DNA of 27,765 nt from a virus (lineage: Duplodnaviria; Heunggongvirae; Uroviricota; Caudoviricetes). Every line of letters starts with the position of its first letter. Position 1 is the first letter of the stretch. The position numbers were made by a program, and so were the translations under genes. The notes under the pieces are model-generated. The model saw only the letters and a program-made list of their open reading frames with translations. It ran no database searches and was not told the origin of the DNA. Shown here piece by piece: positions 4,313 through 27,363 of the stretch. The stretch is taken from IMG/VR virus record IMGVR_UViG_2910596823_000004. The stretch is one strand, 5' to 3'.

Positions 4313-4369
4313 GATTTCCTCCATGAAAAGTCAAATCGGGATGGCAGTTTTATATCACAATATAACTGT

Positions 4370-4399
4370 ATTTTGTAGGTAAGCACTTACCTACAAAAT
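4370..4399. promoter_or_regulatory. 18-bp palindromic box, copy A (4376-4393, TAGGTAAGCACTTACCTA), within a perfect 14-bp inverted repeat
   Basis: ATTTTGTAGGTAAG-CA-CTTACCTACAAAAT between cor and the holin-like gene; 3 mismatches to consensus TAAGTAAGTACTTACTTA. Confidence 0.7.
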
Positions 4400-4404
4400 G
4401 AGTT

Positions 4405-4638
4405 TTAAATTTTTGGGCATGAGCTTAGTGAGGTGAAAGCACCAGAGCCGACCCAACGCCAGTTAAAGACACTACCTGCACGGTATAATGTGTAATGCCC
4501 TTCTTTCTTAATCGCATAGATTGGCACACCAGTGTCAACGCCGCCTACCATTGCTCGCCCATAGCAAACCGGCTCTGGTAGTTTCTGGCACGCAGTCAAA
4601 GTTAAAGCCATACCTAAAATTAATATCATCTTTTTCAT
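4405..4638 (-). CDS. cor: Cor superinfection-exclusion lipoprotein
   Basis: 77 aa, lipobox LTAC, with the PVC.G.A.VGG....V.IY..K......YRAG..FNWRWV....F....C pattern of phi80/N15/T1 Cor. Confidence 0.88.
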   Translation of the reverse strand: MKKMILILGMALTLTACQKLPEPVCYGRAMVGGVDTGVPIYAIKKEGHYTLYRAGSVFNWRWVGSGAFTSLSSCPKI

Positions 4639-4649
4639 TCTATTCTCCG

Positions 4650-5258
4650 TTATCCGTAGAGGTTTCTGTTCAAAACTGGAACTCGGTTATTGATAGCTAA
4701 TGTAGCCCCACCGTTAATTTCATTAACGAGAATCGAACTCACGGTGTTCCCATAACATGTGTAACCGTATACTAGGGTCTTCGCACCACCCGGCATCGGT
4801 ATGGCGAATGCGTTAGCATATGTAGGCACAATAGCTACTGGATAATCAAAGTTGTGTTTATCTCCGCTGTTCCAGCTCTTATTATCAAGAAACGTAAATG
4901 ACAATGGAATATTTGCCGTGTTATAGATCTCCACTCCCGATGAATTAAAGAAACTCATCCCCCACTTCTCTTTTTTTGAAATGCCAGTTGCGAACACATA
5001 CACCGTTACACTGGAGTCGCTGCCTACCCCGCCGAAGCTGTAAATAACCTGGTTATTGCGAACTAATCGGCTTGCCAGTAGCGATACTGCCTTTGAATAA
5101 GCAACGAAAACAATAGGCGACCGATCTGGAGACAGGCCAGTATTGAACTCACTTCCGCCTCGCAACGACACCACATGCTTACTTTGGAACACCATCGGGG
5201 TAAGACTTGGAGACATCCAGACCTTCCCATCAGAACGAACAATTTTGCTTCCGTACAT
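4650..5258 (-). CDS. Tail-tip/receptor-binding-associated protein (larger gene of the phi80/T1-like pair preceding cor)
   Basis: 202 aa, beta-rich, begins MYGSKI; TAATG-coupled to the upstream 84-aa gene and directly upstream of cor. Confidence 0.55.
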   Translation of the reverse strand: MYGSKIVRSDGKVWMSPSLTPMVFQSKHVVSLRGGSEFNTGLSPDRSPIVFVAYSKAVSLLASRLVRNNQVIYSFGGVGSDSSVTVYVFATGISKKEKWGMSFFNSSGVEIYNTANIPLSFTFLDNKSWNSGDKHNFDYPVAIVPTYANAFAIPMPGGAKTLVYGYTCYGNTVSSILVNEINGGATLAINNRVPVLNRNLYG

Positions 5259-5512
5259 TATTTCTGAAACACCAATATATAAATTGTACCGCGAGCATCA
5301 GACCAGTTAATCGAGTTGCCCGATACCGAAACACTTCCAATATATCCATTGATTGTTTCCATTATGTAGTAATCAATTGACATACCTGGCTCAATTGCAT
5401 AACTTCTGCTGCCACTACCTGTCGGTAGAAAATAATCCAGATAATAAATTGGCGCTAATGCGTCAACCATTTCCTGACGGCTAGGCGACCAGATTTTTGC
5501 TCCATAACTCAT
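5258..5512 (-). CDS. Small tail-tip-associated protein (MSYGAKIW type)
   Basis: 84 aa; the N-terminal YG.KIW motif resembles the small genes that follow J in T1/phi80/HK97-like phages. Confidence 0.55.
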   Translation of the reverse strand: MSYGAKIWSPSRQEMVDALAPIYYLDYFLPTGSGSRSYAIEPGMSIDYYIMETINGYIGSVSVSGNSINWSDARGTIYILVFQK

Positions 5513-5527
5513 TATTTTCCCTCCGTG

Positions 5528-5551
5528 AAAAGAGGCACTAACGTACCTCTT
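5528..5551 (-). terminator. Intrinsic terminator after the adhesin gene
   Basis: AAGAGGTAC-GTTA-GTGCCTCTT (one G-U pair) followed by TTC. Confidence 0.6.
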
Positions 5552-5555
5552 AAAA

Positions 5556-6092
5556 TCAGACTCTGGAGACGGTAAACGTCGCTCCTACCTGATTGAAAAA
5601 CCAGTTTTGTGCAGTTAATGCGTAATAAGTCCGCACCCCATTCAGGTACATATAATTGACAAACGACAGCACAGTACCATTAAGAGATAGATTAAAGTTT
5701 TGTGCAGGCCCATTAACCAATCCCAAATAGAGATTTTGATAACCGCTTGGTTGATAAAAATGTCGGATTTCACAACCAAACAAGCTACCGCTTAGAGAAC
5801 CAGTAGGGCGCACGGTTAGAACGTTACTGAGTACATTCTGGATACTGCCTGTAGCGGTTGCAAAACCGGTGTAGTTAGTGGACACAATGACCCACTGCAT
5901 GTTTGTTACCTGCACGCGGGCATCATAAGTACTGCGTCCAGTTGTGATGGTAAAGTCGGCAGTAGATTTACCAACCAAGCCACTCATCCAGAACGGTGTG
6001 CCGACCTTAACAGCCGAGCCAGCGGCGGACATCCACCGCTGACCAGTTGTTGCGACGGCTGACGACCCGACCCATCCGGAGCCAATAGCCAT
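5556..6092 (-). CDS. Tail-fibre adhesin with a T-even gp38-type N-terminal attachment domain
   Basis: MAIGSGWVGSSAVATTGQRWMSAA...PFWMS..VGKS matches the Trp-rich gp38 N-terminus. TGATG-coupled to the fibre gene. The C-terminus lacks polyglycine motifs. Confidence 0.75.
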   Translation of the reverse strand: MAIGSGWVGSSAVATTGQRWMSAAGSAVKVGTPFWMSGLVGKSTADFTITTGRSTYDARVQVTNMQWVIVSTNYTGFATATGSIQNVLSNVLTVRPTGSLSGSLFGCEIRHFYQPSGYQNLYLGLVNGPAQNFNLSLNGTVLSFVNYMYLNGVRTYYALTAQNWFFNQVGATFTVSRV

Positions 6093-9000
6093 CAATTACC
6101 TCCCTTTAAAACAGACATTTCTCCACGGAGTTCGCGCACTTCTTCACGTAACTCCTTCACAGCCTCGACCAACATGCCGATCACACCGTTATAGTTCAGA
6201 CGTAAACGCGCTTGGCCGGACTGATCATTGTGGTCGACAGTTACCAGCTCAGGCTGGACCTTCTGAACGTCCTGCGCGATAAGCCCGCCAGACTGTTCGT
6301 AACGGTCATAGACCTGAATTTCATATAGAACGCCTTCAATCCGCTCTAACTTGTCGAGCGCCCGTTCAATCTTGCGAATATTACGTTTGCTACGACGGTC
6401 AGAGCGGATATAAACGTCGTTAAAACTACCATTGCCACCGCAATACCACACGCCATCGTTCTGCAGAAAAGCCTGTGCATCCGTTCCGTTAGCAGTACGC
6501 GATTTGTTAATCATGTAGAACCCGAACTGCGAGTTCCCCAACCCACCGACCATAAAGTAACGATCGGCGTGCTCCTGACGAACAATTGCTGATGCGGAGG
6601 AGGTATTTACAGCGGAGCTGTTTGAAAGCGCAGCGTTAGTCCTCATGTCGATCCACGATGTGCTCGACGTCGGGATTCGGATATTTCCGCTCGTGACATC
6701 CACCCCTCCCCCAACGCTCAAGCCATTCCCCATTGAAACTGCACCGCTTGCGTTTGCAATAGTAATCGGTCGTAAAGCATTCCAACTTCCAAGCGGATCT
6801 CCAGATGCGGTCAAAAGGAAATAGGTGTTCCCCCCATCATTTCTGATAAAGAAACCATAGTTGCCATATGCCGCGCGGTAGGCGTTGGCCGATCTGGAAA
6901 TGATATCCCCTGCTGCAGTCAGACCACCTGAAAGCGTGCCACCGGACAAAGGCAAAGCCCCCACATCTGCGGCGCTCGGCTTGTTGAGTGTGGTGTAGAG
7001 CTGTGCCCACGCCGACCAATTTGCATCACTAGCATCACGGCGAGAACGAACGTAAACTGGCGCATGAGTACCGCTCGTTCCGCTCCAGCCAATCAATAGT
7101 TCACCTTCACCTGAAGACGCCGCACCTTTAAGATGAATGACGTTGCCATAAGTCGTTGGGTAATTGTTGCTGTAGGCTTCATACATTTGTATGCCGGGCA
7201 TTGCCCCCTGGGAGTTAGCTTCCAGCGCTGCGACTCTCCCGCGTGACACAAGTGTGGGAATGGAGATATTTGCTGACCCGTCAAAAGACACGTTATTAAT
7301 CGTTCTTGGGGTCTGTAGCTTAGTCGCTGTTGCTGCATTGCCTGTTGTACTCTGATTACCCGCAGTATTTACGCCCGGCAAATTGATATCAGTTGACCCA
7401 TCAAAAGAAACTCCGCCAATTTTTCGCGCTGTTTGCAGTTTTGTCGCCGTACCAGCATTGCCCGTAGTGCTCTGATTGCCTGCTGTGTTTACGCCAGGTA
7501 AGTTGATATCGGCTGACCCATCAAAAGAAACCCCACCAATTTTTCGGGCCGCCTGCAGCTTCGTCGCTGTGGCTGCATTACCGGAAGTATTCTGATTACC
7601 CGATGTATTTACGCCTGGTAGATTGATATCTGCGGAGCCATCGAAAGACACACCTCCGATACTACGAGCGATCTGGAGCTTGCTCGCCGTTGCAGCGTTA
7701 CCGGAAGTACTCTGGTTGCCCTGAGCATTCACCCCCGGAAGCACGATATCTTTGCTGCCATCGAACAATACGCCACCGATGCTGCGAGCGGTCTGCAGTA
7801 CAGTCGCTGAACTTGCGTTACCCATGAGCGATCCGGTAATAGAGCCATCTGCATCGGAAAGCACACGATGATAAACAACTCCCACAACGGCGTTTTCCGG
7901 TAGCGTATCCAGAACCTCAAAAACTTCCAGGGTCTCTACCGCTGCGCCAGAGAACTGAAGGTTAACAATCAGCTTCTGAGCACCCGCACCGGCATTCAGA
8001 TAGATATCGTAGTTGTCCTCATCGGTGTTCACAGTGGCTACGTTCTGCACGGCAGAATCCATTGTGCGATAGGTAACTACATTCAGGCCACGCGGATCGC
8101 CACTAGCTGTTCGAAGCACTATGTCGGCCATTGCCGCCTGATAAGGGCTGTTGACTTCATATCCCGCACCGCCAATGATCTCGATATAAACGGTGCTGGT
8201 CGACTGCGGCATACGTGCGCGCGAAATCTTCACCCATTTAGGCGAATCGGTAGTTAGGTCCATCTCTGCGGAAGTCCCTTTCCACTTCACGCTCGCTACA
8301 CTTGATTGGGCATTCTGAGCATACTCATACGCCTTATCCTCAGACTCTTTCGCTTTTGTTTGGGATATTTTTGCTTCACCCGCGGAGGTTGACGCCTCGG
8401 TTGCCTTCTTCGATGCGAGCACAGCGGACTCAGCCGCCTCATTCGCTTTGACTTCTATCCCAGCCAGAGAATCTGCCGCTGTTGTTGCCGACGCAGCTGC
8501 ACTCGTCTCTGACTTCTTAGCTTCACCTGCGCTCAATGCAGCGGCTTCTTTGCTGGCTAACGCAGCATCAGCGTATTCGCCAGATGCCGAAGCACTATTA
8601 GCCGCAGCCTCGGCACTCAGACCTGCGGCAGATTCACTCTCAGCAGCAGCCTTCTGCGATGCGTCGGCGTTGGTTTCTGAAACTTTGGCCGCAGCAGCAC
8701 TGGCCACCGACTCCCCGGCGCTCGAAGCAGCATGAGTTTCTGACTCCTTAGCCGCATTTTTCGAGGCCAGCGCATCAGCTGCACTACCAGCGGCGGCCTG
8801 CTCTGAGGCAGAGGCATTGGTTTCAGAGGTTTTTGCAGCAGCAGCAGAGTCAGACGCAGCAGACGCTGAAGCAGAGGCTTCGGATGCACTGGTCGCAGCC
8901 TGAGCTTCAGATGCTTTAGCCGCATCTTTGGATGCCGCGGCACTCGTGGCTGATTCACCAGCTTCAGTCGCTTTGGCAGACGCTGTCGCGGCAGACGCAG

Positions 9001-9646: not shown

Positions 9647-9658
9647 ATTCGCTCCTTG

Positions 9659-9682
9659 ATAAGACGGGCATCCTCGCCCGTC
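9659..9682 (-). terminator. Hairpin (weak terminator) upstream of the fibre gene, loop GAGGAT
   Basis: GACGGGC-GAGGAT-GCCCGTC followed by TTAT. Confidence 0.5.
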
Positions 9683-9684
9683 AT

Positions 9685-9702
9685 TAAGTAAGTACCTACT
9701 TA
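9685..9702. promoter_or_regulatory. 18-bp palindromic box, copy B (TAAGTAAGTACCTACTTA)
   Basis: 1 mismatch to consensus; lies in the J-fibre intergenic region. Confidence 0.75.
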
Positions 9703-9733
9703 TTTTTACCGATATGAAGAAATATTTCTACTG

Positions 9734-14500: not shown

Positions 14501-15285
14501 GTCTCATCTCCCTTGAGTAAGTCTCTGTGACGCAGGTGGTGCGTCGTGTGTTTCTGGTACATGCCACCGTAATAAGCGCGACAACTCAGGCGGTCTATCT
14601 GGTGATGCAGGATCATGCCGTCTCCGATATACACCGCGCAGTGGTCAGGCATTTTTCCGTACTGGATGAAGAAGACATCGCCGCGCTGCGGTTCCGTCCC
14701 TGGCGCAAGACGCACAAGCCCTTCATTTCGATAGTTCTGGTCGAGAATGTCGTTGTCGCCCGTGTACCATGACGGGATATGCAGGTGCGCATTCGGATTC
14801 AGCTCAACACCAAACTCGCGTTTGAGATAGTCGCGGCAAAGCATCCAGCAGTCGAAGACACCGAACACATAGGGTCTCCCCAGATAAGGCATCTCAAAGC
14901 CGTCTGGGGTGATCACATTCATCTCACTGAAGTGAAATGGCGCATCGCCCTCGACGTTCTTGCGTACAGCCAGAATCAGCCACGGAACTTCCGTTGCCTC
15001 GCATCCGGCGCGATCGGCGTCTGACGCATCCGCTGATTCGTCAGTGTGGGAGTGCCAGATGGCAACCACGTCTCCCGCATCTTCCGCAGCGATAATGTCG
15101 TCAGCGTGCATAACAAACGTGTTTTCCGGGTACTCCGACACGTTCCGGGCTTCAATGAAGCGATATTTCTCGCCAGAGGTACGCACCAGAAAGCCACACG
15201 CTTCGTTCGGGTAGCGTTTGATGGCTGTCAGATAGATTTGTTGCATAACGTCCGAGCCAAGCTCAGGGAGCGCTTTATTACCCAT
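14488..15285 (-). CDS. Tail assembly protein (lambda K-like; JAB/MPN plus NlpC/P60)
   Basis: Start reassigned to MGNK. YPNEACG, HSH.....S..D JAB motif, FDCW catalytic Cys and HCAVY His. Confidence 0.93.
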   Translation of the reverse strand: MGNKALPELGSDVMQQIYLTAIKRYPNEACGFLVRTSGEKYRFIEARNVSEYPENTFVMHADDIIAAEDAGDVVAIWHSHTDESADASDADRAGCEATEVPWLILAVRKNVEGDAPFHFSEMNVITPDGFEMPYLGRPYVFGVFDCWMLCRDYLKREFGVELNPNAHLHIPSWYTGDNDILDQNYRNEGLVRLAPGTEPQRGDVFFIQYGKMPDHCAVYIGDGMILHHQIDRLSCRAYYGGMYQKHTTHHLRHRDLLKGDETCLS

Positions 15286-15976: not shown

Positions 15977-15989
15977 CGTTTCTTCCTTG

Positions 15990-16022
15990 AAATAAAGAGG
16001 CGCCAACATCCTGTCAGCGCCT
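15990..16022 (-). terminator. Intrinsic terminator between M and L, loop AGGAT
   Basis: AGGCGCTGAC-AGGAT-GTTGGCGCCT followed by CTTTATTT. Confidence 0.7.
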
Positions 16023-16033
16023 ATAGATAATAG

Positions 16034-16051
16034 TAAATAAGTGCTTACTTA
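16034..16051. promoter_or_regulatory. 18-bp palindromic box, copy C (TAAATAAGTGCTTACTTA)
   Basis: 2 mismatches to consensus; lies in the M-L intergenic region. Confidence 0.72.
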
Positions 16052-16065
16052 TCTAGTAGGTTAAA

Positions 16066-16401
16066 TTATCCTTCATAAATTTGTCTGAAGGTCGCAGTGA
16101 GAACCTGATAGCCCTGGTAACGTTTGACTGTATGGCTGTCGCACACCACAACAATCTTTTTGCCACGAGGGTTCGTCCAGTAGAACGACTCAACGGCTGC
16201 GCGTGCCGTCAGAAAGTCATCGACAGCATTGATGACGTCGTAAGAGCGCGTAAATGTCAGGCTCCACTCTTCTTTGATGCGATTGAGACCTTTGGCCTGG
16301 CGCTGTTCGTAATCGTCACCGAAATTCAGAACCGTCACGTTAGGCTTCACGGTCTTTTCCGACTCGTAGTCGGGATACCAGTTAAAAGTCAGTCTTTCCA
16401 T
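16066..16401 (-). CDS. Distal tail protein (lambda M-like)
   Basis: 111 aa; FGDDYEQR..KGLN...W.L.F and FL......F.W..P pattern; directly after the TMP. Confidence 0.92.
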   Translation of the reverse strand: MERLTFNWYPDYESEKTVKPNVTVLNFGDDYEQRQAKGLNRIKEEWSLTFTRSYDVINAVDDFLTARAAVESFYWTNPRGKKIVVVCDSHTVKRYQGYQVLTATFRQIYEG

Positions 16402-16438
16402 CTCACATCCTTGTGAGACTGCCCCTTCCGGGGCAGCC
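16401..16438 (-). promoter_or_regulatory. Tandem hairpins between TMP and M: a GGAA-tetraloop stem and an RBS-containing TCTCAC-AAGGAT-GTGAGA stem
   Basis: CTGCCCC-GGAA-GGGGCAG (16419-16436). The 16401-16418 hairpin places the Shine-Dalgarno in a hexaloop that matches the CsrA consensus ACARGGAUGU. Confidence 0.6.
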
Positions 16439-19400: not shown

Positions 19401-21023
19401 CTGCCCGGCAGTGCCAATCACGCCCATGATACCCGCACGCATCAGTTTGAACGCCACCATAGCGGCCACTACTTTGCCCAGGTTGACAATCAACTCCTGG
19501 TTTTTCGCCAGCCACTGCGCCAGCTCACGTAAGCTGTCGATTGCGGTGGTAAGTCCGGAACCTAATGAGTTAGCGAACGAAATGCCTTCAGCGCTGTTCA
19601 TAATGGAGGCCAGCTCTTTCATTCCCTTTGAGAAAGAATCCAGATAGCCCGCCTGACCGACGCGATCGGCAAACAGCGTAAATGAGGTTTGCAGTTGCGC
19701 CAGCGCACCGGTGTAGGTCTGCATCATGTCTTTGGCGGCGTTTTCGTTCTCTGCACGCAGACCAACGAACATCAGCGATAGCGCCTGCTTCGCTTCCACA
19801 GTGCCGGTGGAGACTGCTTTGGTCAGTTCCCCCATAGTGATACCGGCAGCGTCTGCCATCGCCTTCATCGCGTTAGGAACGGCTTCACCTAATTGCTGAC
19901 GCAGTTCTTCCATCGACACGACGCCCTTACCGGACATCTGCTGAACAGCCACGGCAGCACGTTTAAGCAGCTCGCTATCGCCGCCGAAGCGTGCAACGGA
20001 GTCCACCAGTGCTTTCAGCGATCCGTCAGTAGGATCGAGACCTGCCGAGCGGAATTTAACGAAGGAATCGGTCAGCGCCTGCATCGCAAACGGGGCGTTT
20101 TGCGCCATATCCACGATGTACTGCATATCCTCTGCGGCTGCTTTGCCAGGGTTGGCCTTGTCCTTGTTCAGCCCGCGCAACATGACGCGCATACGCTCCA
20201 TTTCGGAGGCAGCTTCGACGATTGGCTTCTGCCAGCCGAACAGGATGTCAGTTACCGTTCTTGCCGCATCACCAATCTCGCCCAGCAGGAAAATATTGCC
20301 TCGCAGACCAGAGAACACGCCATTTTCAGCACCGCGCCCGCCGTGGCCATAGGAACCGCTGTGTCGACCGCCACCGCCATTACCACCGCCCTCACCGTAG
20401 CCGCTGGTGCGCACACGCACCGGCTTGCTGATCAGCTGCTGGCGGCCAATCACCGCATCCATCTGATCGCGGACTTTCTTCAGCCCCTCGGCAGCCTGGC
20501 TCGTTGTGACGCCCCAATTGCTGAGACGCTTCGTCGTGGTGTTAAGGCGCGTATTCATGCCACTCACGGATGCAGAGGCTTCTTTTACCTCCGTACCGAA
20601 GCGGCTGGCGCTCTTACCAGCGAACGTTGCCCAATCGGAAAACTCATTGAGTTCAGACTGAACCTTGCGCAGCGATGTGGTGAGTTTATTAACGGATGAG
20701 GTGGTTGTGTCGACGCGCTCAATCAGAGTTTTGAGACCTGAGTTGAGGCTGGTAATGTTGCCTCGCGTCTTGCGCGAAACATCAGACACAAGCTCGAAGC
20801 CGGCAGCTACATCCTGTAGTTTGTCTGCCGTGGCATCGAGCTTGGACTCCAGAACGCCGATGATGCGGGAGACCGAACCCAACGAGCGTTCCAGATTGTT
20901 AATTTTCTGAGCGGGCTTTGTGGCCTGCTCCCCGAATCTGGTAAGTAGCTTACCCGCCCGGTCGATTGACGCTGTAAACTGCTTGTCTTCCAGCGACAGG
21001 ATAAACTCTACGTTTTGTGACAT
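16443..21023 (-). CDS. Tape measure protein
   Basis: Start reassigned to MSQNVEF (AAGGGA RBS); 1526 aa helical protein with a tape-measure domain (AQNAPF...GGDSELL.RA..AVQQMSGKG.VS.EEL..QL.E) and a lambda H-like C-terminus (FAKGG...GEGDMNEAYVPL). Confidence 0.95.
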   Translation of the reverse strand: MSQNVEFILSLEDKQFTASIDRAGKLLTRFGEQATKPAQKINNLERSLGSVSRIIGVLESKLDATADKLQDVAAGFELVSDVSRKTRGNITSLNSGLKTLIERVDTTTSSVNKLTTSLRKVQSELNEFSDWATFAGKSASRFGTEVKEASASVSGMNTRLNTTTKRLSNWGVTTSQAAEGLKKVRDQMDAVIGRQQLISKPVRVRTSGYGEGGGNGGGGRHSGSYGHGGRGAENGVFSGLRGNIFLLGEIGDAARTVTDILFGWQKPIVEAASEMERMRVMLRGLNKDKANPGKAAAEDMQYIVDMAQNAPFAMQALTDSFVKFRSAGLDPTDGSLKALVDSVARFGGDSELLKRAAVAVQQMSGKGVVSMEELRQQLGEAVPNAMKAMADAAGITMGELTKAVSTGTVEAKQALSLMFVGLRAENENAAKDMMQTYTGALAQLQTSFTLFADRVGQAGYLDSFSKGMKELASIMNSAEGISFANSLGSGLTTAIDSLRELAQWLAKNQELIVNLGKVVAAMVAFKLMRAGIMGVIGTAGQIVNTFATMSTVIQAPFNLGATAVTRFNRAARMGLAPIPSLIFAIRGAITGLQGAFAGLTAFIAANPIGAAFTVATVAVAGLITYMTMLRSETSKVVDEIRKIPEAMTAAKRAQMAERAEKLEKEIIADQRALKTGESVSYVSNSVGAVTHKESKADIEARLKKNQEEYQKITGTIALGDGAVAKRLAKEAAESQIEKIRADNQVFSATFVKARQEALDKIQKINDDKSLSDDEKNKLLAPLRETVNKSYLEPAQKLVDSLSSRKNATEKQIAHYNDLLEKAKKEGNTEQIQKLQGSIRGYQEHLEAVAQELTQAEFERDNAAKTGKGVMSNQGTVLGLGTSDKAAQKALAQYMRNQMDSATYQRTLPDGTAMLDFEGKPIIGPKQLKTQLNLQKASSASSLEKMSDEERAAAIAALTKAREQDAAAAEKAGQRTANASQRAARKEENAQRKLAAGYQKALDKADQLMGQMGESSKATVSFDQSLRDTTKSLTELANAVPNEFITQEMIDKAKSRLADLANASDDYREMFNRRNVEQMISTWAPESDSIISAGYKPSREEKVADFNDTYNRNLKALMDLRDQASDPKIVALYTKQINQLVAAGNTALIKETGTATQKLALEYENLAEQLENSWSNLFSSLTDTLTDFVMKGKMDFSSLAESILRDITNMVVKTQITLPLMNMLGMGTTAAGSSQSGNLLSGVASAVANQGVRMNSVNGDKSVGEATKETSSSVSGLGQTTQQTTSAIGTATNAIGSWVSGLFSSTEAKDAETKAVKTSIFSMQNLSSVTGALSAAFAMLGANASGSGNKWLSFGSTVVSGLVSAWAGGGFDSLMSGSSGSSGFNNLTGSAADGTNGIPSIPKFAKGGIFGKDGVVPLRAYQKGGIADSPQLALFGEGDMNEAYVPLPDGRSIPVTLNAEGIKGGGGGVFSPVSIEINVNSDGSVTENSNSEGAWSQAAQRMKAIALETIAQEKRPGGSLNPNSQRN

Positions 21024-21030
21024 TCCCTTG

Positions 21031-21390
21031 TCATCCTCTGCCAAAAATTTGCATCAGTTGCTCTTTGGCGTCAGGGTCTGCCTTATCCTTGCGCGGATCG
21101 TAGACTTTATCGGTTACGACTGGTCTTCCAATCCTGAGTTGCAAACCCTCCATGAACGCCTTCACGCCCTCGCCATCTGCCTGGGCAGCGCGAGCGACTT
21201 GCAGGTTGCGGACATCCTCTTCCGCGCGCAGGCGGTCGATGTTGCGACTGAGCATCCAGAACATCGTTAGAGGGACGCCCAGCAGCTCTAATGGCGACAC
21301 GGCGTAGTGAGCAACTACACGACTGAAATAGAATCCGAGATCTATCGATACGGTCTTTACCCCGGATTCATCGCGGGAAATTACTTTGCC
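21031..21390 (-). CDS. T frame of the tail assembly chaperone GT (about 222-aa fusion made by -1 frameshift)
   Basis: The -1 frame is open from 21390 (GKVISRDESG...HYAVSPLELL...) to 21031, with a TGA just upstream in that frame; classic position between G and the TMP. Confidence 0.85.
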   Translation of the reverse strand, partial: GKVISRDESGVKTVSIDLGFYFSRVVAHYAVSPLELLGVPLTMFWMLSRNIDRLRAEEDVRNLQVARAAQADGEGVKAFMEGLQLRIGRPVVTDKVYDPRKDKADPDAKEQLMQIFGRG

Positions 21391-21698: not shown

Positions 21699-21714
21699 TG
21701 GTTAAAGTCCTTTT

Positions 21715-21740
21715 AAAAGAGAGGCTCTTCCTGAGCCTCT
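21715..21740 (-). terminator. Intrinsic terminator after the tail tube gene, loop AGGAA
   Basis: AGAGGCTC-AGGAA-GAGCCTCT followed by CTTTT. Confidence 0.75.
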
Positions 21741-22504: not shown

Positions 22505-22555
22505 TGTTGGAAAACTCCTTTTTCCGTTAAATCAGCACCTTCATGGCGCCAATGG

Positions 22556-22573
22556 TAAGTATATACTTACTTA
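22556..22573. promoter_or_regulatory. 18-bp palindromic box, copy D (TAAGTATATACTTACTTA)
   Basis: 2 mismatches to consensus; upstream of the tail tube gene. Confidence 0.72.
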
Positions 22574-22578
22574 TTTTA

Positions 22579-22962: not shown

Positions 22963-22963
22963 A

Positions 22964-23437: not shown

Positions 23438-23772
23438 ATGTTTGCCCCTACTTCCAGATGCCCAGGGCGCCCACGCAGTCCCCAGCGACGATGCACGCTG
23501 GATACCTTCAGCTTTTGCCCCTCCAGAATGAGAACGTCATCAAGCTGTACTGCGGCCTCAAGTGGGATCACCAGAACAGCATCGAACAATTCCAGATCCG
23601 CTTTACCGCGACTGCCGGAGCTGTCCGCACGTACCGATGATTTCTCGTTACTTTGCTCAAACTTAACGACGCCGACGTTCGTCTTCCTGACGAACTGCAA
23701 TTGCGCTTCACCGTAGACGTTCTTCGAACCCAGACGGTAAATCGCTATCTCTGCTTGCCATGAAATGTTCAT
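23428..23772 (-). CDS. Head closure (stopper) protein
   Basis: Start reassigned to MNISW (AGGGAG RBS); NVYGE motif near the N-terminus and a beta-rich DDVLIL...KV.SV pattern; neck position. Confidence 0.7.
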   Translation of the reverse strand: MNISWQAEIAIYRLGSKNVYGEAQLQFVRKTNVGVVKFEQSNEKSSVRADSSGSRGKADLELFDAVLVIPLEAAVQLDDVLILEGQKLKVSSVHRRWGLRGRPGHLEVGANIWV

Positions 23773-23869
23773 GCACTCTCCCTGTGGTTGGCCGCCGCAC
23801 TCATTACCAGGCGAAGGCGCGATTGCTCGTCTTGAGCCTTTCGACCAGAAGTAAATAATGCGACTGGCG

Positions 23870-24703
23870 TTACGCACGGCGAACAATCATGCGGTTATTG
23901 ATGTAACTGACCAGCAGTCGCCAGGTACTGCGAGCCACATGCACATTTGCCGCTTTGCCGGTGCGGTACATATTAGTCGTTTCACCAATGGACTCAGACA
24001 GAATGCCGTCCTCGCGGGCTGCCGCTACGTCATTACCGTTAGCGATTTCGCAGGCTTCATTAACCACGGCCAGCATTAATGCCTGTTTGAAGTAGTCCGG
24101 GAACTCGTCGAATTTCTCCGGCGTTATCTGCTCCCAATCAATCAGATCGTGACGATATGCCCCGTCAGCGCCCCACGGAATGTCATAGACGTTCAGCATG
24201 TTTTGCGGGCGGTCGTAACGGTCGAAGTCGATACGCAGGACTTTGCGGATTGAGAACGGCAGCGTTTTGACGCGTCTGGTGGCCTCAATGAGACGTTTGC
24301 GCATCAGCCCTTCTCCATCAGCTAACAGGGTGTCGCCGTTCAGCATATCGATAGCTTGCATCTGGGCGTCTGCGACCGTTGCGAATGACTGGCCTGGAAT
24401 TGACAGCTCGAAGCTATTCAGCAGAACGTACATCTTGCGCTCTTCATGCGTCAGCCCGGATGCCACCGCTTTGACAATGACGTGTCGCAGATCGCGCTCT
24501 TTATCTGAAAGCAGGTTGTGTTCGGCCGACACGACAACCGGAATGGACATCTGCCCCTCAGTAATGTCGAGAGGTTCGTTATCAACGATGATCGCACCAG
24601 CGCCATCTCTGACGGTGTATGTGGCCGACGCAATATCCAGAACGTTAAATGCAAACGACAGGGAAACAGCTTCCCCGCTACGGTACGTGTCGATCTGCGC
24701 CAT
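23870..24703 (-). CDS. Head-tail adaptor/connector with an extra N-terminal domain
   Basis: 277 aa, TGATG-coupled. The C-terminal half has SFATVADA...LIEATRRV...P...K.A...A......ILSESIG adaptor-like motifs. Confidence 0.65.
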   Translation of the reverse strand: MAQIDTYRSGEAVSLSFAFNVLDIASATYTVRDGAGAIIVDNEPLDITEGQMSIPVVVSAEHNLLSDKERDLRHVIVKAVASGLTHEERKMYVLLNSFELSIPGQSFATVADAQMQAIDMLNGDTLLADGEGLMRKRLIEATRRVKTLPFSIRKVLRIDFDRYDRPQNMLNVYDIPWGADGAYRHDLIDWEQITPEKFDEFPDYFKQALMLAVVNEACEIANGNDVAAAREDGILSESIGETTNMYRTGKAANVHVARSTWRLLVSYINNRMIVRRA

Positions 24704-25137
24704 CACTCACCGCCCTGTGCTTTCAGGATGCCTTCGATCATTTCAACGATGCCTTTGGCTTTAACGCCAATCTGGTTGCCAATCTGACGCAGACCCGCAA
24801 TACCCTCACAGTCCGCAATCGACTCCAGCTCTTCACGAGTAAAGCGCTGTACCGGTTTGGCTTCGACTTCAGCCGTACCACGTTTCATTGGCACAATATC
24901 CGGGGCCGCCGTCTCGACAATGTCGTCCGCAGTCAAATCATTGCGGCTGCTGTACGCGGCAGAAGGAGATACATTTTTGCCTTCAACTGTAGTGGCACGC
25001 ATGGAGGCGCAAATTCGCTGCTGGTCGATGAATGGCAATTCGGCAACCGAGACTCCATCCACAAACTGAATGCCACAGAGGATGCCCGTATAACCCAAAA
25101 ACTGAGGCTCCAATAATTGAATTTTTGCTGGTTTCAT
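24703..25137 (-). CDS. Conserved hypothetical virion-associated protein
   Basis: About 144 aa (ATG of MKPAK); co-oriented and coupled within the head-neck cluster. Confidence 0.65.
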   Translation of the reverse strand: MKPAKIQLLEPQFLGYTGILCGIQFVDGVSVAELPFIDQQRICASMRATTVEGKNVSPSAAYSSRNDLTADDIVETAAPDIVPMKRGTAEVEAKPVQRFTREELESIADCEGIAGLRQIGNQIGVKAKGIVEMIEGILKAQGGE

Positions 25138-25152
25138 GGTTATTCTCACTTA

Positions 25153-25174
25153 ATGGGCGATCGATATCGCCCAT
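25153..25174. other. Perfect 9-bp inverted repeat without a U-tract
   Basis: ATGGGCGAT-CGAT-ATCGCCCAT; possible mRNA-stabilising or processing hairpin. Confidence 0.5.
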
Positions 25175-25181
25175 GTGTTAG

Positions 25182-25462
25182 TTACGCGGCAGGTGCTTCG
25201 GTCACTTTGACCGTTGCTGTCGCTTCGTAGGTTCCGTCTTCGCAAGTAATTTCGCAGATTCGTCGTCCGGTACAGTCGGCTCAGCCGGAGTAGTGGAAAC
25301 GGACGGGACGAATGGAACCGCCTGGAGGCAAGCAGCAAGACGTCTCTGCTGGCGCTCACCCAAAGGCTCGTCAGAGATGGAATGAGTGAATCCGGTGCCG
25401 CATACATGACCCGTGAAATCCGCAAACACCTCTTCAGTGATCTTCATCTTTTGTTCTGGCAT
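25182..25462 (-). pseudogene. Ig-like (Big_2) capsid decoration gene with an internal deletion and frameshift
   Basis: Frame 0 reads ...AVPFVPSVSTTPAEPTV (start of a Big_2 domain) and then loses similarity. A second frame encodes EITCEDGTYEATATVKVTEAPAA* (end of a Big_2 domain, stop at 25182). The domain core is missing. Confidence 0.65.
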
Positions 25463-25475
25463 TTCTCGCTCCTAC

Positions 25476-25503
25476 AAAAAGGGTGGGCGTATAGCCCACC
25501 CTT
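25476..25503 (-). terminator. Intrinsic terminator after the major capsid gene
   Basis: AAGGGTGGGC-TATAC-GCCCACCCTT followed by TTT. Confidence 0.85.
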
Positions 25504-25509
25504 AAACGG

Positions 25510-25527
25510 TAGATAATTACTTACCTA
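25510..25527. promoter_or_regulatory. 18-bp palindromic box, copy E (TAGATAATTACTTACCTA)
   Basis: 4 mismatches to consensus; lies between the capsid stop and the terminator. Confidence 0.55.
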
Positions 25528-25536
25528 CTATACTGA

Positions 25537-26418
25537 TCAAATTTTTACGTTGGTCAGTGCGGCGATAGCCTTGTCGTGCTTGTTCGCCAGAGAGCAGTAC
25601 CACTTAACGCGGGTACGTACTGCGTCTTTGTTCTGTACAGTACCGATGTTCTCAACAACGATACCGGCGTTTTCGCCACCGTACAGACCGGTCACGCCGT
25701 TCTCTTCGGACAGGTGCAGACAGTAGATGTCCGCAGCGGTGTTGTCTTCGCTCTTCGGAATGAAGTCGTTGATGATGAACGGAACACCGTTATGGCACAG
25801 CATCGGACGACCGAAGTTCTCCATCATGATTTCGGACGGGCCTACGTTGACGGTACGCAGCAGAGCGCGGTACGCACGCAGGTGTTCGGAACGCATCATG
25901 ATGCAGTCAGCGCCTAGGTCTTTCACCGCGTCCACCAGCTCGTCGAACATGGAGAACGTCATGGAAGCCTTAGCGATGTCGATCTTCTGATCGTTGTGCA
26001 TCAGCTTCGGAATACCGTCGAATGCTTTGGTGTTCTCGGTGGAGTTACCCAGAATCAGGTTGCGACGGAATGCACGCGCCAGACCTTTCACCTTCTGACG
26101 AACCTGGATTGCCAGCTGGCTGTTGGTGTCAGACATAGTGGTCGCCAGGAATTTGTCGACGTCTACGTCGCCTGCCAGGATACGCAGTTTCGCAACGTGT
26201 TCGGTGAAGGTTGCAGCGCCTTCGGTGATGGTGTCGTTCACATCAATAAAGGTTGCTTCGCTCAGGGTAGCTTCACGGTTGTAGAGGTATGCCTTAGAAT
26301 TAATCTTCATGAAAGGCAGAACAGCGAACAGGTCATCGCGATCGATGATGGTCTCGATCACACCCTGCTCAAGTTCGTTGTTAGACAGCTTTTCAGCTTC
26401 ATCACGCAGTAATGGCAT
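25537..26418 (-). CDS. Major capsid protein (HK97 fold)
   Basis: 293 aa following the scaffold; E-loop-like YLYNRE, GDVDVDKF, FDGI.K and C-terminal RTRVKWYCSLA...AIAALTNV. Confidence 0.9.
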   Translation of the reverse strand: MPLLRDEAEKLSNNELEQGVIETIIDRDDLFAVLPFMKINSKAYLYNREATLSEATFIDVNDTITEGAATFTEHVAKLRILAGDVDVDKFLATTMSDTNSQLAIQVRQKVKGLARAFRRNLILGNSTENTKAFDGIPKLMHNDQKIDIAKASMTFSMFDELVDAVKDLGADCIMMRSEHLRAYRALLRTVNVGPSEIMMENFGRPMLCHNGVPFIINDFIPKSEDNTAADIYCLHLSEENGVTGLYGGENAGIVVENIGTVQNKDAVRTRVKWYCSLANKHDKAIAALTNVKI

Positions 26419-26444
26419 CTTTCATTTCCCTATGATTTAAGATG

Positions 26445-27341
26445 TTACTTGAGTCCGATTTTCCCCAGACCGGAGGTCAACTTATCCATAGTCGACTTGC
26501 TCTTCGGCTGGTTTACTTTGTGGGTCGGTTTGCTATTGGAACCAGCACCCTGCTTGGCTTCGCTGCGCAACAGTGCGTCAGCTTCCGGATCTGCACGCAG
26601 AATACGCTCAATCGCGGATTCGAACGGTAACGGTTTGCCTTCACCGTCAACCAGAACTGCACGTTCTTTCTGACCGGCTGGCTTATCAAAGCCCACAACA
26701 CTACCGTCTTCACCCACTTCGAAATGAGATCCGTAGATAACGCGAGCCTTAGCCGGAGTCATCAGAACTTTGTCACGCAGGAAGGCAGAGCCGCTGAAGG
26801 AAGCGCCAACAGTCATTTCGACCAGTTGAGCCTTCAGTGCGGCGTTCTCGCTCTCCAGAGCGGAGTAGCGTTCGTCGCGCTGTGCCAGTTCAGCCTGGTG
26901 CGCTTCGATCATCTGCTTTTTCACAGCATCGAACTCACCACGGCGTTCCAGTTCAGCCTGCTCCGCCTCCCGACGTGCGGTTTCTGCGGCTTGTTCAGCT
27001 TCGAGAAGCTGGCGAGCACGCGCCGGGTCAATATCACCGTACTGAGCCAGCTGATCGGCCAATGTGCGCTCTTTCTCCTTGCGCTTCATGTTCTCTTTCA
27101 GCAGGTCTGCACCGGCTTTCTTGGACTTACGCAGTTCTGCCAGCAATTCTTCCTGAGTCATACCGGCATACTCGTCGTCGTCACCCTTCGGTTGCTCTTT
27201 TTGCTCGCCCTGTTTGCCTGGGTCTTGATTGCCCTGCTCATTGTCTCCAGCAGGAGCACCGCCACCAGCGCCTCCGCGCTCATGCGCTTCGGCTACATCC
27301 ATCAGGCCACGACGGGCCATAAGCATTTGCCACAGATTCAT
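26445..27341 (-). CDS. Capsid scaffolding protein
   Basis: 298 aa; Gly-rich acidic N-terminus, long coiled coil, and basic C-terminal tail; lies between portal and capsid. Confidence 0.85.
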   Translation of the reverse strand: MNLWQMLMARRGLMDVAEAHERGGAGGGAPAGDNEQGNQDPGKQGEQKEQPKGDDDEYAGMTQEELLAELRKSKKAGADLLKENMKRKEKERTLADQLAQYGDIDPARARQLLEAEQAAETARREAEQAELERRGEFDAVKKQMIEAHQAELAQRDERYSALESENAALKAQLVEMTVGASFSGSAFLRDKVLMTPAKARVIYGSHFEVGEDGSVVGFDKPAGQKERAVLVDGEGKPLPFESAIERILRADPEADALLRSEAKQGAGSNSKPTHKVNQPKSKSTMDKLTSGLGKIGLK

Positions 27342-27363
27342 AGAAATTCCTTTTCGTTACTTA

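What the first reader, a model, noticed from the sequence alone, without database searches (positions are those of the whole stretch)
4315..27355. Late-gene Shine-Dalgarno sequences systematically placed in A(N)GGA hairpin loops: a possible CsrA/RsmA-type translational control layer over the whole virion programme
Seen on the minus strand directly at the RBS: scaffold GAAA-AGGAA-TTTC (27343-27355), capsid TCAT-AGGGAA-ATGA (26422-26435), decoration gene TTTTTG-TAGGAG-CGAGAA (25463-25480), tail tube GGAAAA-AGGAG-TTTTCC (22509-22525), chaperone G TTAAA-AGGAC-TTTAA (21702-21716), TMP TGACA-AGGGAA-TGTCA (21018-21033), M TCTCAC-AAGGAT-GTGAGA (16401-16418), L TTTC-AAGGAA-GAAA (15979-15992), 84-aa gene TTTTC-ACGGAGG-GAAAA (5515-5531) and holin-like gene TTTC-ATGGAG-GAAA (4315-4328). 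Weaker cases occur at I (14503-14517) and head closure (23774-23786). The stem sequences all differ while the loop architecture is constant, which suggests selection on structure. Established: CsrA/RsmA binds A(N)GGA in 5-6-nt loops (SELEX consensus RUACARGGAUGU, matched over ACAAGGAUGU at M) and represses translation when the site overlaps the SD. Inference: host CsrA, or a phage-encoded protein with similar specificity, gates virion protein synthesis and couples it to host carbon/growth state, or silences read-through transcripts in the plasmid state. The accessory operon and parA RBSs show no comparable hairpin.
Basis: partly seen in the sequence, partly recalled or inferred. Interest (0 to 1): 0.85.

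Follow-up and report, generated by a model that had tools for sequence, protein, structure and literature searches.

The report
GGA-loop hairpins at phage late RBSs
In an SSU5/pHCM2-type phage-plasmid, many virion and lysis genes carry their ribosome-binding site in the loop of a small conserved RNA hairpin. Several also have a second GGA-loop hairpin just upstream, a layout that looks like binding modules for the host regulator CsrA, although no binding has been shown.

Summary
All ten hairpins sit exactly at the stated coordinates.

**Enrichment.** About 1.7 are expected (P about 5e-6).
- Non-late genes of the same element are at chance (4 vs 3.4).
- The host chromosome shows 5.7%.
- Lambda, N15 and HK97 late operons show no excess.

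**Conservation.** All eight relatives examined show the excess. There are compensatory stem changes (capsid, tube, L) and lineage-specific gains.

**New here.** Five of nine GC-rich late intergenic hairpins carry GGA in the loop, against 2.2% of host terminator-like hairpins. They lie 19-30 nt upstream of the SD GGA, and the GGA persists while the stems covary.

**CsrA reading.** The pairing of an SD loop with an upstream loop fits published CsrA site rules. The host encodes csrA, csrB and csrC; the element encodes no csrA and no sponge RNA.

**Caveats.** Binding is untested. The arms also raise predicted SD accessibility, so protein-free "SD presentation" remains a serious rival. A sequence-only CsrB/C matrix gave no support.

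**Verdict.** This is a real, conserved RNA feature. The CsrA interpretation is plausible (about 0.4) and directly testable.

The parts
27343..27355 (-). Scaffold (DUF6651) RBS hairpin GAAA-AGGAA-TTTC
   Evidence: Exact at these coordinates, dG +1.2. A GGA-loop hairpin is kept in 10/12 distinct orthologues, mostly as A-run/T-run stems.
26422..26435 (-). Major capsid RBS hairpin TCAT-AGGGAA-ATGA
   Evidence: Kept in 12/12 distinct orthologues. There is a compensatory TCAT/ATGA to TCAA/TTGA change in the E. coli clade and CP102, with no single-change intermediates. Predicted SD unpaired probability 0.98.
26452..26496 (-). Two GGA-loop hairpins inside the 3' end of the scaffold gene, upstream of the capsid RBS: GTCGACT-ATGGATA-AGTTGAC and GGTCTGG-GGAAAA-TCGGACT
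   Evidence: GGA is in the loop in 13/13 orthologues that have a strong hairpin here.
25463..25480 (-). Decoration (truncated Ig-like) gene RBS hairpin TTTTTG-TAGGAG-CGAGAA, with two G-U pairs
   Evidence: The 5' arm is the U-tail of the preceding terminator-like hairpin at 25479-25503, whose loop (TATAC) lacks GGA.
23677..23695 (-). GTTCGTC-AGGAA-GACGAAC hairpin inside the head-closure gene, about 80 nt after its start
   Evidence: dG -8.3. Its function was not followed up.
22509..22525 (-). Tail tube RBS hairpin GGAAAA-AGGAG-TTTTCC
   Evidence: dG -3.0. Kept in 16/16 distinct orthologues while the neighbouring spacer diverges. CP102 has TGCAAA-AAGGAG-TTTGCA (compensatory); other variants are a G-U pair and a register shift.
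21702..21716 (-). Chaperone G RBS hairpin TTAAA-AGGAC-TTTAA
   Evidence: dG +1.7. 18/18 distinct orthologues keep a GGA-loop hairpin, in 12 different stem forms.
21720..21740 (-). GC-rich hairpin AGAGGCTC-AGGAA-GAGCCTCT, 21 nt upstream of the G SD GGA
   Evidence: dG -13.1. GGA is in the loop in 30/35 distinct orthologues; the exceptions are AGGCA, AGGTA and ATGAT. The stem is mostly invariant, so covariation is limited.
21018..21033 (-). TGACA-AGGGAA-TGTCA hairpin spanning the tape-measure start codon
   Evidence: The GGA is at -3..-1, so it is not the SD. The region is invariant in all relatives but lies inside the G-T frameshift reading frame, so its conservation is uninformative.
16401..16418 (-). 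M RBS hairpin TCTCAC-AAGGAT-GTGAGA; the 3' arm reaches into the ATG
   Evidence: dG -6.8; -8.9 in the extended form. Kept in 15/16 distinct orthologues. It matches the SELEX consensus RUACARGGAUGU over CACAAGGAUGUG (PMC7652899).
16417..16438 (-). GC hairpin GGCTGCCCC-GGAA-GGGGCAGTC upstream of M
   Evidence: dG -18.2. The GGA loop occurs only in this lineage (2/18 distinct orthologues) and the loop is otherwise very variable.
15979..15992 (-). L RBS hairpin TTTC-AAGGAA-GAAA
   Evidence: Kept in 17/19 distinct orthologues. CP102 has CTTC-AAGGAT-GAAG (compensatory).
15998..16022 (-). GC hairpin AGGCGCTGAC-AGGAT-GTTGGCGCCT with apex ACAGGAUGU, 25 nt upstream of the L SD GGA
   Evidence: dG -15.6; terminator-like. 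GGA is at the apex in 34/37 distinct orthologues, with 16 distinct stems. These include the unrelated Klebsiella (CAACGTCAC/GTGACGTTG) and CP102 (GCCCCC/GGGGGC) stems.
14503..14517 (-). I RBS hairpin CTCA-AGGGAGA-TGAG
   Evidence: It lies inside the 3' end of K, so its conservation is confounded by coding. It is lost in the Klebsiella clade.
9663..9682 (-). GC hairpin GACGGGC-GAGGAT-GCCCGTC, 21 nt upstream of the tail-fibre SD GGA
   Evidence: The loop keeps GGA in 7/7 orthologues, with 7 different stems. The fibre SD itself is not in a hairpin in this element.
5515..5531 (-). 84-aa (outer-membrane-protein-like moron) RBS hairpin TTTTC-ACGGAGG-GAAAA
   Evidence: Broken in SSU5 by one change in the 3' arm. 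AnCo1 has a different palindrome, AAGTATA-AGGA-TATATTT. PHROG assignment.
4315..4328 (-). Holin-like gene RBS hairpin TTTC-ATGGAG-GAAA; the loop ATG is an in-frame upstream start
   Evidence: Only 3 bp remain in Cronobacter, Klebsiella and pSAN1. Dual in-frame ATGs at 4324 and 4312.
22534..22550 (-). Context: GC hairpin upstream of tube, loop ATGAA (no GGA here; GGA in the Klebsiella clade and CP102)
25153..25174 (-). Context: GC hairpin upstream of the 435-bp head gene, loop without GGA
5530..5551 (-). Context: GC hairpin upstream of the 84-aa gene, loop GTTA (no GGA)

Best explanation
The late (virion, lysis and tail-fibre) mRNAs of this SSU5/pHCM2/pMT1-type phage-plasmid carry conserved RNA modules built like CsrA binding sites.

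- **Low-stability site:** the SD GGA sits in a 5-7-nt loop closed by 4-6 pairs.
- **Stable site:** in several leaders (TerS, capsid, G, L, tail fibre; M in this lineage) a GC-rich hairpin 19-55 nt upstream displays A(N)GGA(U/A/C) at its apex.

**Most likely mechanism (inferred).** A dimer of the host's CsrA docks on the upstream loop and bridges to the SD loop, as described for glgC. It clamps the weak SD stem and competes with the 30S subunit. Translation of late proteins would then depend on the pool of free CsrA.

**Possible consequences (inferred).** Leaky late transcripts could be kept silent in the plasmid state. Repression could be relieved when late mRNA floods the cell or when CsrB/CsrC rise.

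**Shown here:** the motifs, their excess, their late-gene specificity, their conservation and covariation, and the presence of csrA, csrB and csrC in the host.

**Inferred:** that CsrA is the ligand, and the sign of the effect. Stabilisation, as for flhDC, is equally possible for the upstream hairpins.
For: **SD-in-loop excess**
- 9/20 late genes against about 1.7 expected.
- Other genes of the element are at chance.
- Host 5.7%.
- No excess in lambda, N15 or HK97.

**Family-wide conservation**
- All 8 relatives are enriched, including the divergent Enterobacter CP102.
- Compensatory changes at capsid, tube and L.
- Gains in non-homologous contexts, such as the Klebsiella fibre AATTACA-AGGAA-TGTAATT.

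**Upstream GC hairpins**
- 5 of 9 in the late region have GGA in the loop, against 19/848 (2.2%) of host terminator-like hairpins.
- GGA is kept in TerS 23/23, capsid 13/13, L 34/37, G 30/35 and fibre 7/7 distinct orthologues, over 7-16 different stems.
- In the TerS hairpin, 3 of 6 pairs have changes on both sides.

**Two-site layout.** An SD loop plus an upstream loop 10-63 nt away occurs in 6/26 late genes, 1/97 other genes and 2.0% of host genes.

**Loop sequence**
- Loops read CAGGA(U/A/C)G, A(A/U)GGAU or AUGGA(U/C).
- The base after GGA is G in 2/107 distinct upstream loops, against 38/83 true SDs.
- This matches the published CsrB repeat and the CLIP motif rather than an SD (PMC7652899, PMC5207318).
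- The host's own CsrB/CsrC units look alike, e.g. CTTCAGGATGAAG and GATCAGGAAGATC.

**Published CsrA rules (PMC7652899).** Stems of about 4 bp and 6-nt loops are typical of SELEX ligands. Bridging works over 10-63 nt and is optimal above 18 nt.

**Host genes.** The host encodes csrA, csrB and csrC.
Against: - There is no binding, footprint or genetic evidence.
- Every SD contains a CsrA-like core, so the SD sites alone cannot discriminate.
- A position matrix from the host's 36 CsrB/C GGA sites has little power and scores late SD contexts lower than other SDs.
- CAGGA(U/A/C)G is not over-represented in the element.
- The upstream hairpins have 7-10-bp GC stems and U-tails. They look like intrinsic terminators or 5' stem-loops, whereas SELEX ligands favour short stems.
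- G-up loses GGA in 5/35 variants. M-up has GGA only in this lineage.
- The arms raise predicted SD accessibility without any protein.
- The biological logic is unclear, because CsrA is most active in growing cells, when a phage would want late proteins.
- My strict two-site rule does not recover the textbook target glgC in this host. It therefore describes an architecture and is not a validated CsrA-target detector.
Confidence: 0.4

Rival explanations
1. Protein-free 'SD presentation'. The AU-rich arms pair with each other so that neither the U-rich terminator tail nor other pyrimidine tracts can sequester the purine-rich SD. This keeps late RBSs open, and perhaps hides AU-rich RNase E targets, in long structured polycistronic mRNAs. 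The hairpins are then translation or stability optimisers, not regulatory sites.
For: - Predicted probability that the 5-nt SD core is unpaired: median 0.19 in late genes against 0.016 in others (p 0.002).
- In hairpin genes the native arms give 0.38 against 0.13 for controls with a shuffled 5' arm (p 0.01).
- The highest values are at capsid (0.98), tube (0.87) and scaffold (0.52), the most abundant proteins.
- Four 5' arms are simply terminator U-tails facing an A-rich spacer.
Against: - It does not explain conserved GGA in the loops of the upstream GC hairpins.
- It does not explain hairpins at low-copy genes such as M and L.
- M's 7-8-bp stem buries the AUG and should inhibit translation.
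- A 5-nt loop cannot pair with the anti-SD without opening the stem (own knowledge).
- Most stems have dG near 0.
- Lambda, N15 and HK97 late operons have the same terminator-plus-RBS layout but show no excess.
Confidence: 0.32
2. A different RNA-binding protein, phage-encoded or host (not CsrA), recognises GGA loops. It acts as a late translational repressor or activator, or as an antitermination or processing factor at the GC hairpins.
For: - The feature is specific to this phage family and absent from lambdoid late operons in the same hosts.
- Most small genes of the element have no known function.
- The purine-rich pentaloops on GC stems (AGGAA, AGGAU) are superficially like boxB-type protein-binding hairpins (own knowledge).
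Against: - No candidate was identified.
- No CsrA-family gene is on the element.
- The motif rules coincide in detail with those of CsrA, which is essentially invariant across the family's many host genera (own knowledge).
- Nut-type sites occur once per operon, not at many cistrons (own knowledge).
Confidence: 0.1
3. The upstream GC hairpins are ordinary intrinsic terminators or 5' stem-loops. Their GGA loops act as SD-like standby sites for 30S subunits, or are historical accidents, and the SD hairpins are an unrelated by-product.
For: - L-up scores as a terminator, and U-tails follow most of these hairpins.
- Promoter-like -10 elements overlap the palindromic boxes just upstream. The hairpins could therefore be 5'-terminal, although such promoter matches are no more frequent than in shuffles.
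- The G-up stem and loop are largely invariant, so inheritance alone could explain that site.
Against: - GGA loops occur in 5/9 hairpins against 2.2% in host terminators.
- GGA persists over many different stems.
- The loops avoid GGAG (2/107) and include AUGGAC and AUGGAU, which have only 3 nt of anti-SD complementarity. They are therefore poor SDs.
Confidence: 0.1
4. Chance or composition: AU-rich flanks around SDs make short palindromes by accident.
For: - The stems are short and AU-rich, and TTTC/GAAA recurs.
- The criterion was chosen after looking at the data.
Against: - Nulls that preserve composition give 1.3-1.7 expected against 9 observed.
- Alternative criteria are also significant.
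- Non-late genes, the host and three other phages are at baseline.
- There are compensatory changes and independent gains in relatives.
Confidence: 0.03

Closest known systems
CsrA repression of glgC (E. coli): high-affinity GGA hairpin loop upstream plus low-affinity site over the SD, bridged by one CsrA dimer (PMC7652899)
   Same: - An upstream GGA-in-loop hairpin and an SD-overlapping GGA 19-30 nt apart (L, G, fibre, TerS, M).
- The host carries the Csr system.
   Different: - Here the SD site is itself in a small hairpin.
- The upstream stems are longer and terminator-like.
- The layout recurs at many cistrons of one phage operon.
- Binding is unproven.
- The host's own glgC leader does not meet my strict rule.
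CsrB/CsrC (RsmY/Z) repeat units and SELEX ligands: CAGGA(U/A/C)G or RUACARGGAUGU in 6-nt loops on stems of about 4 bp
   Same: - Loop and stem geometry.
- L-up apex ACAGGAUGU, M CACAAGGAUGUG, G-up CAGGAAG.
- CP102 L site CTTCAAGGATGAAG resembles host CsrB CTTCAGGATGAAG.
   Different: - The sites are dispersed in mRNA leaders and are not clustered in a sponge RNA (at most 5 per 300 nt).
- A sequence-only matrix gives no support.
RsmE-hcnA complex (Pseudomonas): protein-induced stem with an ANGGAN hexaloop over the SD (Schubert 2007, as summarised in PMC7652899)
   Same: A weak 4-5-bp stem around an A-N-GGA-N loop that contains the SD. Six or seven of the ten sites can adopt this hexaloop.
   Different: - Different organism and protein orthologue.
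- Three sites are pentaloops and two are heptaloops.
Intercistronic terminator or attenuator hairpins of lambdoid late operons (annotated in N15 and HK97)
   Same: GC hairpin plus U-tail after major head and tail genes, immediately before the next RBS.
   Different: Their loops lack GGA, and their RBSs show no SD-in-loop excess.

Membership tests
CsrA/RsmA binding site | GGA in the single-stranded apical loop of a hairpin | tested here: met
   Ten SD-proximal and six or seven upstream hairpins have GGA in the loop. The excess is measured against shuffles, the host and other phages.
CsrA/RsmA binding site | A(N)GGA / ANGGAN loop context on short (about 4 bp) stems | tested here: met
   - A at -2 of the SD GGA in 16/20 late genes, but also in 46/63 others.
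- Six or seven of ten SD sites can form an ANGGAN hexaloop.
- SD stems are 4-6 bp.
- The upstream hairpins have longer 7-10-bp stems, so they fit this rule less well.
CsrA/RsmA binding site | Primary-sequence likeness to the host's own CsrB/CsrC sites | tested here: inconclusive
   The log-odds matrix barely separates CsrB/C sites from SDs (medians -0.38 vs -1.29). Late SDs score lower than other SDs, and upstream loops range from -2.3 to +3.1.
glgC-type two-site CsrA repression module | One site overlapping the SD and a second site 10-63 nt away | tested here: met
   6/26 late genes, 1/97 other genes, 2.0% of host genes. The spacing is 19-30 nt at L, M, G and TerS.
glgC-type two-site CsrA repression module | Physical binding by CsrA and CsrA-dependent change in translation | not testable with these tools
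Csr system present in the cell | csrA plus antagonist sRNAs in the host | tested here: met
   csrA on C8 (92 bits), CsrB on C8 (333 bits) and CsrC on C16 (206 bits).
Element-encoded CsrA homologue | A PF02599 domain encoded on the phage-plasmid | tested here: not met
   A six-frame search of the whole assembly finds only the chromosomal copy.
CsrB-like sponge RNA on the element | Ten or more GGA loops clustered in a short non-coding RNA | tested here: not met
   At most 5 loop-GGA per 300 nt anywhere on either strand.
Conserved RNA secondary structure | Base pairs maintained by compensatory changes across relatives | tested here: met
   - TerS-up: 3/6 pairs with changes on both sides, 97% of cells paired.
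- L-up: several pair types at stem positions 4-10.
- Capsid, tube and L SD stems have double changes.
- G-up has little variation.
Intrinsic terminator (upstream GC hairpins) | GC-rich stem followed by a U-run | tested here: met
   L-up and deco-up are called by the scan. U-rich tails are visible after G-up, fibre-up and 84aa-up. Termination itself was not tested.

The most novel reading that the evidence does not exclude
Host CsrA acts as a titratable gate on the entire late programme of SSU5/pHCM2/pMT1-type phage-plasmids.

- In the plasmid state, abundant CsrA silences leaky holin, endolysin and virion transcripts.
- After induction, the flood of late mRNA outruns free CsrA. Each transcript carries a dozen or more GGA-loop sites. 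This would give a sharp threshold for virion synthesis.
- At the same time the late mRNA would act as a CsrA sponge that reprogrammes host carbon metabolism, motility and virulence regulons.
Probability: 0.15. Interest if true: 0.85.

Novelty: new variant of a known kind. Interest (0 to 1): 0.62.

Why it matters
SSU5-like phage-plasmids are common. The plasmid search found 795 matching records in Klebsiella, E. coli, Enterobacter, Yersinia (pMT1) and Salmonella. How they keep a full lytic programme silent while replicating as plasmids is poorly understood.

A conserved post-transcriptional layer on the late genes would be a new control point. If CsrA is the ligand, it would tie virion production to the host's central carbon, stress and virulence regulator. 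I found no paper in the held library linking CsrA to phage late genes or to this family.

Even under the rival reading, the finding gives a clear and testable case of selection for SD-in-loop RBS architecture in one phage family but not in lambdoid phages.

Tried and rejected
- **Sequence matrix from the host's CsrB/CsrC GGA sites vs SD sites.** It has little discriminating power and gives no support for late SDs being CsrB-like.
- **CAGGA(U/A/C)G counts.** The motif is not enriched in the element: 0.34 vs 0.38 per kb in the host. Only 4 copies are intergenic, though all four sit in hairpin loops.
- **Positive control.** The host glgC leader is not recovered by my strict two-site rule. Its hairpin GGA is 98 nt from the SD and the SD stem is only 3 bp. 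The rule is descriptive, not a CsrA-target predictor.
- **Element-encoded csrA.** None found.
- **GGA-dense sponge RNA.** None found.
- **MAFFT alignment of the L leader.** It is not structure-consistent across clades, so I counted stems anchored on the GGA instead.
- **G-up helix.** It is nearly invariant and carries little covariation signal.
- **GGA vs TCC in loops of all stable hairpins on the transcribed strand.** The counts are 27 vs 12. This is only a modest asymmetry and is confounded by coding-strand purine bias, so I did not use it.
- **Promoter scan.** -10-like elements overlap two palindromic boxes, but such matches are no more frequent than in shuffles.
- **Pfam and PHROG scans of ten small window proteins.** No RNA-binding domain was found.

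Full report
**What the window is.** The 27.8-kb window is the first part of a 91.8-kb contig of the assembly. It is 99.7% identical to Salmonella plasmid pCFSAN076210 and 97.5% to phage SSU5. It has about 94% relatives in Enterobacter, Citrobacter and Yersinia pestis (pMT1), and 79-84% relatives in E. coli, Cronobacter and Klebsiella. It is therefore an SSU5/pHCM2/pMT1-type phage-plasmid.

All late genes lie on the minus strand, in this order: TerS (just outside the window), TerL, portal, scaffold, capsid, a truncated Ig-like decoration gene, head-completion genes, tube, G/T, tape measure, M, L, K, I, J, tail fibre and adhesin, a small moron cluster, and holin-endolysin-spanin. I took gene starts from the PGAP annotation of the near-identical plasmid and checked them on the window.

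**The observation.** Every one of the ten claimed strings is at the claimed coordinates on the minus strand, ending 0-4 nt before the start codon or overlapping it. Four qualifications apply.
- The tape-measure hairpin has its GGA at -3..-1 and contains the ATG, so it is not the Shine-Dalgarno.
- The decoration-gene stem needs two G-U pairs.
- TTTC/GAAA recurs three times, so the stems do not all differ.
- Most isolated hairpins are marginal (+1.7 to -0.7 kcal/mol). Only tube (-3.0), tape measure (-3.2) and M (-6.8) are clearly stable.

The rule requires at least 4 Watson-Crick pairs and a 5-7-nt loop containing a GGA at -17..-4. Late genes scored 9/26 and all others 4/97 (Fisher about 1e-4).

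Two nulls that preserve composition agree.
- Swapping 3' flanks among late genes gives 1.63 expected (permutation p about 2e-4).
- Shuffling each gene's own flanks gives 1.3-1.7 expected (P about 1e-6 to 6e-6).

Non-late genes sit at expectation (4 vs 3.0-3.5). Stricter (at least 5 bp) and looser (G-U allowed) rules also give an excess.

A crude gene caller reproduces the late signal (9/21). It shows the host chromosome at 5.7% against 4.7% expected over 4255 genes. The late operons of lambda (1/16), N15 (3/14) and HK97 (1/11) show no meaningful excess, although they have the same terminator-then-RBS layout. The pattern is therefore real, late-specific and family-specific.

**Evolution.** I collected eight annotated relatives and 76 IMG/VR loci found with the tube protein, then extracted orthologous start regions. 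Every annotated relative shows the excess: 5-9 hairpins among 13-18 late GGA-SD genes, with about 1-2 expected.

Hairpins kept among distinct orthologous sequences:

| Gene | Kept |
|---|---|
| tube | 16/16 |
| capsid | 12/12 |
| G | 18/18 (twelve stem forms) |
| L | 17/19 |
| M | 15/16 |
| scaffold | 10/12 |

Clear compensatory double changes exist.
- Capsid: TCAT/ATGA to TCAA/TTGA, with no single-change intermediates.
- Tube: GGAAAA/TTTTCC to TGCAAA/TTTGCA in Enterobacter CP102.
- L: TTTC/GAAA to CTTC/GAAG in CP102.

New hairpins appear in non-homologous or previously unstructured RBSs. Examples are a 7-bp AATTACA-AGGAA-TGTAATT at the unrelated Klebsiella fibre gene, J in pSAN1 and CP102, and portal in Cronobacter. 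Losses also occur: the 84-aa gene in SSU5, the holin-like gene in three clades, and I in Klebsiella.

Folding the late intergenic regions shows a recurring order: palindromic box, GC-rich hairpin, U-rich run, SD, ATG. Of nine GC-rich hairpins in the late region, five have GGA in the loop.
- TerS-up: GGAGCGCA-AGGA-TGCGCTCT, just outside the window at contig position 30892-30911.
- Fibre-up: 9663-9682.
- L-up: 15998-16022.
- M-up: 16417-16438.
- G-up: 21720-21740.

Two further GGA-loop hairpins lie in the 3' end of the scaffold gene, upstream of the capsid RBS (26452-26496).

In the host chromosome only 19 of 848 terminator-like hairpins (2.2%) have GGA in the loop, and GGA ranks 58th among loop triplets. 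Across distinct orthologues the GGA is kept in TerS 23/23, capsid-up 13/13, L-up 34/37, G-up 30/35 and fibre-up 7/7. The stems take 7-16 different forms, including entirely different Klebsiella and CP102 stems at L-up.

The TerS hairpin has changes on both sides in 3 of 6 pairs, with 97% of cells paired. G-up is nearly invariant and therefore uninformative. Other hairpins (deco-up, 435-up, 84aa-up, J) never have GGA, and M-up has it only in this lineage.

The combination of an SD loop and an upstream loop 10-63 nt away occurs in 6/26 late genes, 1/97 other genes and 2.0% of host genes.

**What it most likely is.** Published rules for CsrA are as follows.
- GGA sits in apical loops, with SELEX consensus RUACARGGAUGU.
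- Most ligands have about 4 contiguous pairs and 6-nt loops, and ANGGAN hexaloops are typical.
- The CsrB repeat is CAGGA(U/A/C)G.
- One dimer bridges two sites 10-63 nt apart, with an optimum above 18 nt.
- glgC is the model: a hairpin site tethers CsrA, which then covers the SD (PMC7652899).
- In Salmonella, CLIP-seq gives [A/C]UGGA in apical loops (PMC5207318).

The phage motifs fit these rules closely.
- The L-up apex is ACAGGAUGU.
- The M site is CACAAGGAUGUG.
- G-up and L-up variants read CAGGA(A/U/C)G.
- TerS, G, fibre and capsid-up variants read AUGGA(U/C).
- Site spacing is 19-30 nt.

The host's own CsrB and CsrC units, such as CTTCAGGATGAAG and GATCAGGAAGATC, look much the same.

One feature argues against an 'extra SD / standby site' reading of the upstream loops. 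The base after GGA is G in only 2 of 107 distinct upstream loops, against 38 of 83 genuine SDs. Several loops (AUGGAC, AUGGAU) have only three bases of anti-SD complementarity.

The host carries csrA, csrB and csrC. The element carries no csrA and no GGA-dense sponge. I therefore rank host CsrA acting through glgC-like two-site modules as the single most likely explanation, at about 0.4. Binding and the direction of the effect are inferences.

**The main rival.** Partition-function folding of 180-nt contexts shows that late SD cores are far more often unpaired than others (median 0.19 vs 0.016, p 0.002). In hairpin genes the native arms raise this probability over controls with a shuffled 5' arm (0.38 vs 0.13, p 0.01). 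The highest values are at capsid, tube and scaffold.

The arms could thus have been selected simply to stop U-rich terminator tails and other pyrimidine runs from sequestering the SD, with no protein involved. Three points weaken this reading.
- It does not account for the conserved GGA loops upstream, or for hairpins at low-copy genes.
- M's stable stem buries the AUG.
- The pattern is absent from lambda, N15 and HK97.

It cannot be excluded, and the two explanations are compatible with each other.

**Negative and inconclusive results.**
- A sequence-only matrix from CsrB/C sites has little power and does not favour late SDs.
- CAGGA(U/A/C)G is not enriched overall.
- The textbook glgC leader of this host is not caught by my strict two-site rule.
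- I found no paper connecting CsrA with phage late genes, SSU5 or pMT1 late genes in the held library.

**Earlier notes of this scan.** On the same genome these describe the dispersed palindromic boxes and the promoter-operator cassette. I saw both directly next to the hairpins. The boxes sit immediately 5' of the GC hairpins. The AAACAAGTTGTTT cassette sits immediately 5' of the TerS leader hairpin.

**Verdict.** The structural inference is supported. The CsrA assignment is plausible, precise enough to test in a week of bench work, and not yet shown.

Noticed in passing
window 4312-4324 (-): The holin-like gene has two in-frame ATGs four codons apart (M-E-E-I-M). The upstream ATG sits in the loop of the RBS hairpin, and the GGAGGA between them serves as the SD for the second. 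This resembles the dual-start holin/antiholin motif of lambda S with its upstream stem-loop.
   Followed up: partly
window 25202-25462 (-): The Ig-like decoration gene is only 86 aa here and in pCFSAN076210. It matches just the first part of the 220-307-aa Ig-domain proteins of SSU5, pMT1, AnCo1 and others. The SSU5 alignment is about 640 bp longer in this interval.
   Followed up: partly
window 4371-4398, 9686-9701, 16026-16053, 22554-22572, 25508-25530 (-): Palindromic GTAAGT..ACTTAC boxes lie immediately 5' of the GC hairpins. At tube and L they overlap sigma-70-like -10 hexamers, which would place a transcript start at the foot of the hairpin. Such promoter matches are no more frequent than in shuffled sequence.
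   Followed up: partly
own contig C21 about 51611-51643 (outside the window; record NZ_CP033346 102970-103002): Two hairpins with CAGGATG loops (GTTCCAGGATGGAAC and CGTTCGTCAGGATGACGAA) lie 32 nt apart in an intergenic region upstream of a 164-aa gene. This is another CsrB-unit-like pair outside the late operon.
   Followed up: no
window 4405-5512 (-): The 84-aa gene, the 188-aa gene and the lipoprotein match PHROGs for outer membrane protein, membrane-associated protein and Cor. This is the same trio as N15 genes 22-24, and it is a likely moron / superinfection-exclusion cluster rather than a set of virion genes.
   Followed up: partly
locus L048:16490-16540 (IMG/VR relative): In one relative the L-up hairpin is replaced by a (GATGGT)n hexanucleotide repeat followed by a different hairpin with a TCC-containing loop.
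   Followed up: no
window 15998-16022 (-), ATG at 16009: The GGAUG at the apex of the L-up hairpin provides an ATG in frame with L, 11 codons upstream of the annotated start. It has no SD of its own.
   Followed up: no
window 23677-23695 (-): A stable GTTCGTC-AGGAA-GACGAAC hairpin with a CAGGAAG apex lies inside the head-closure gene, about 80 nt after its start.
   Followed up: no
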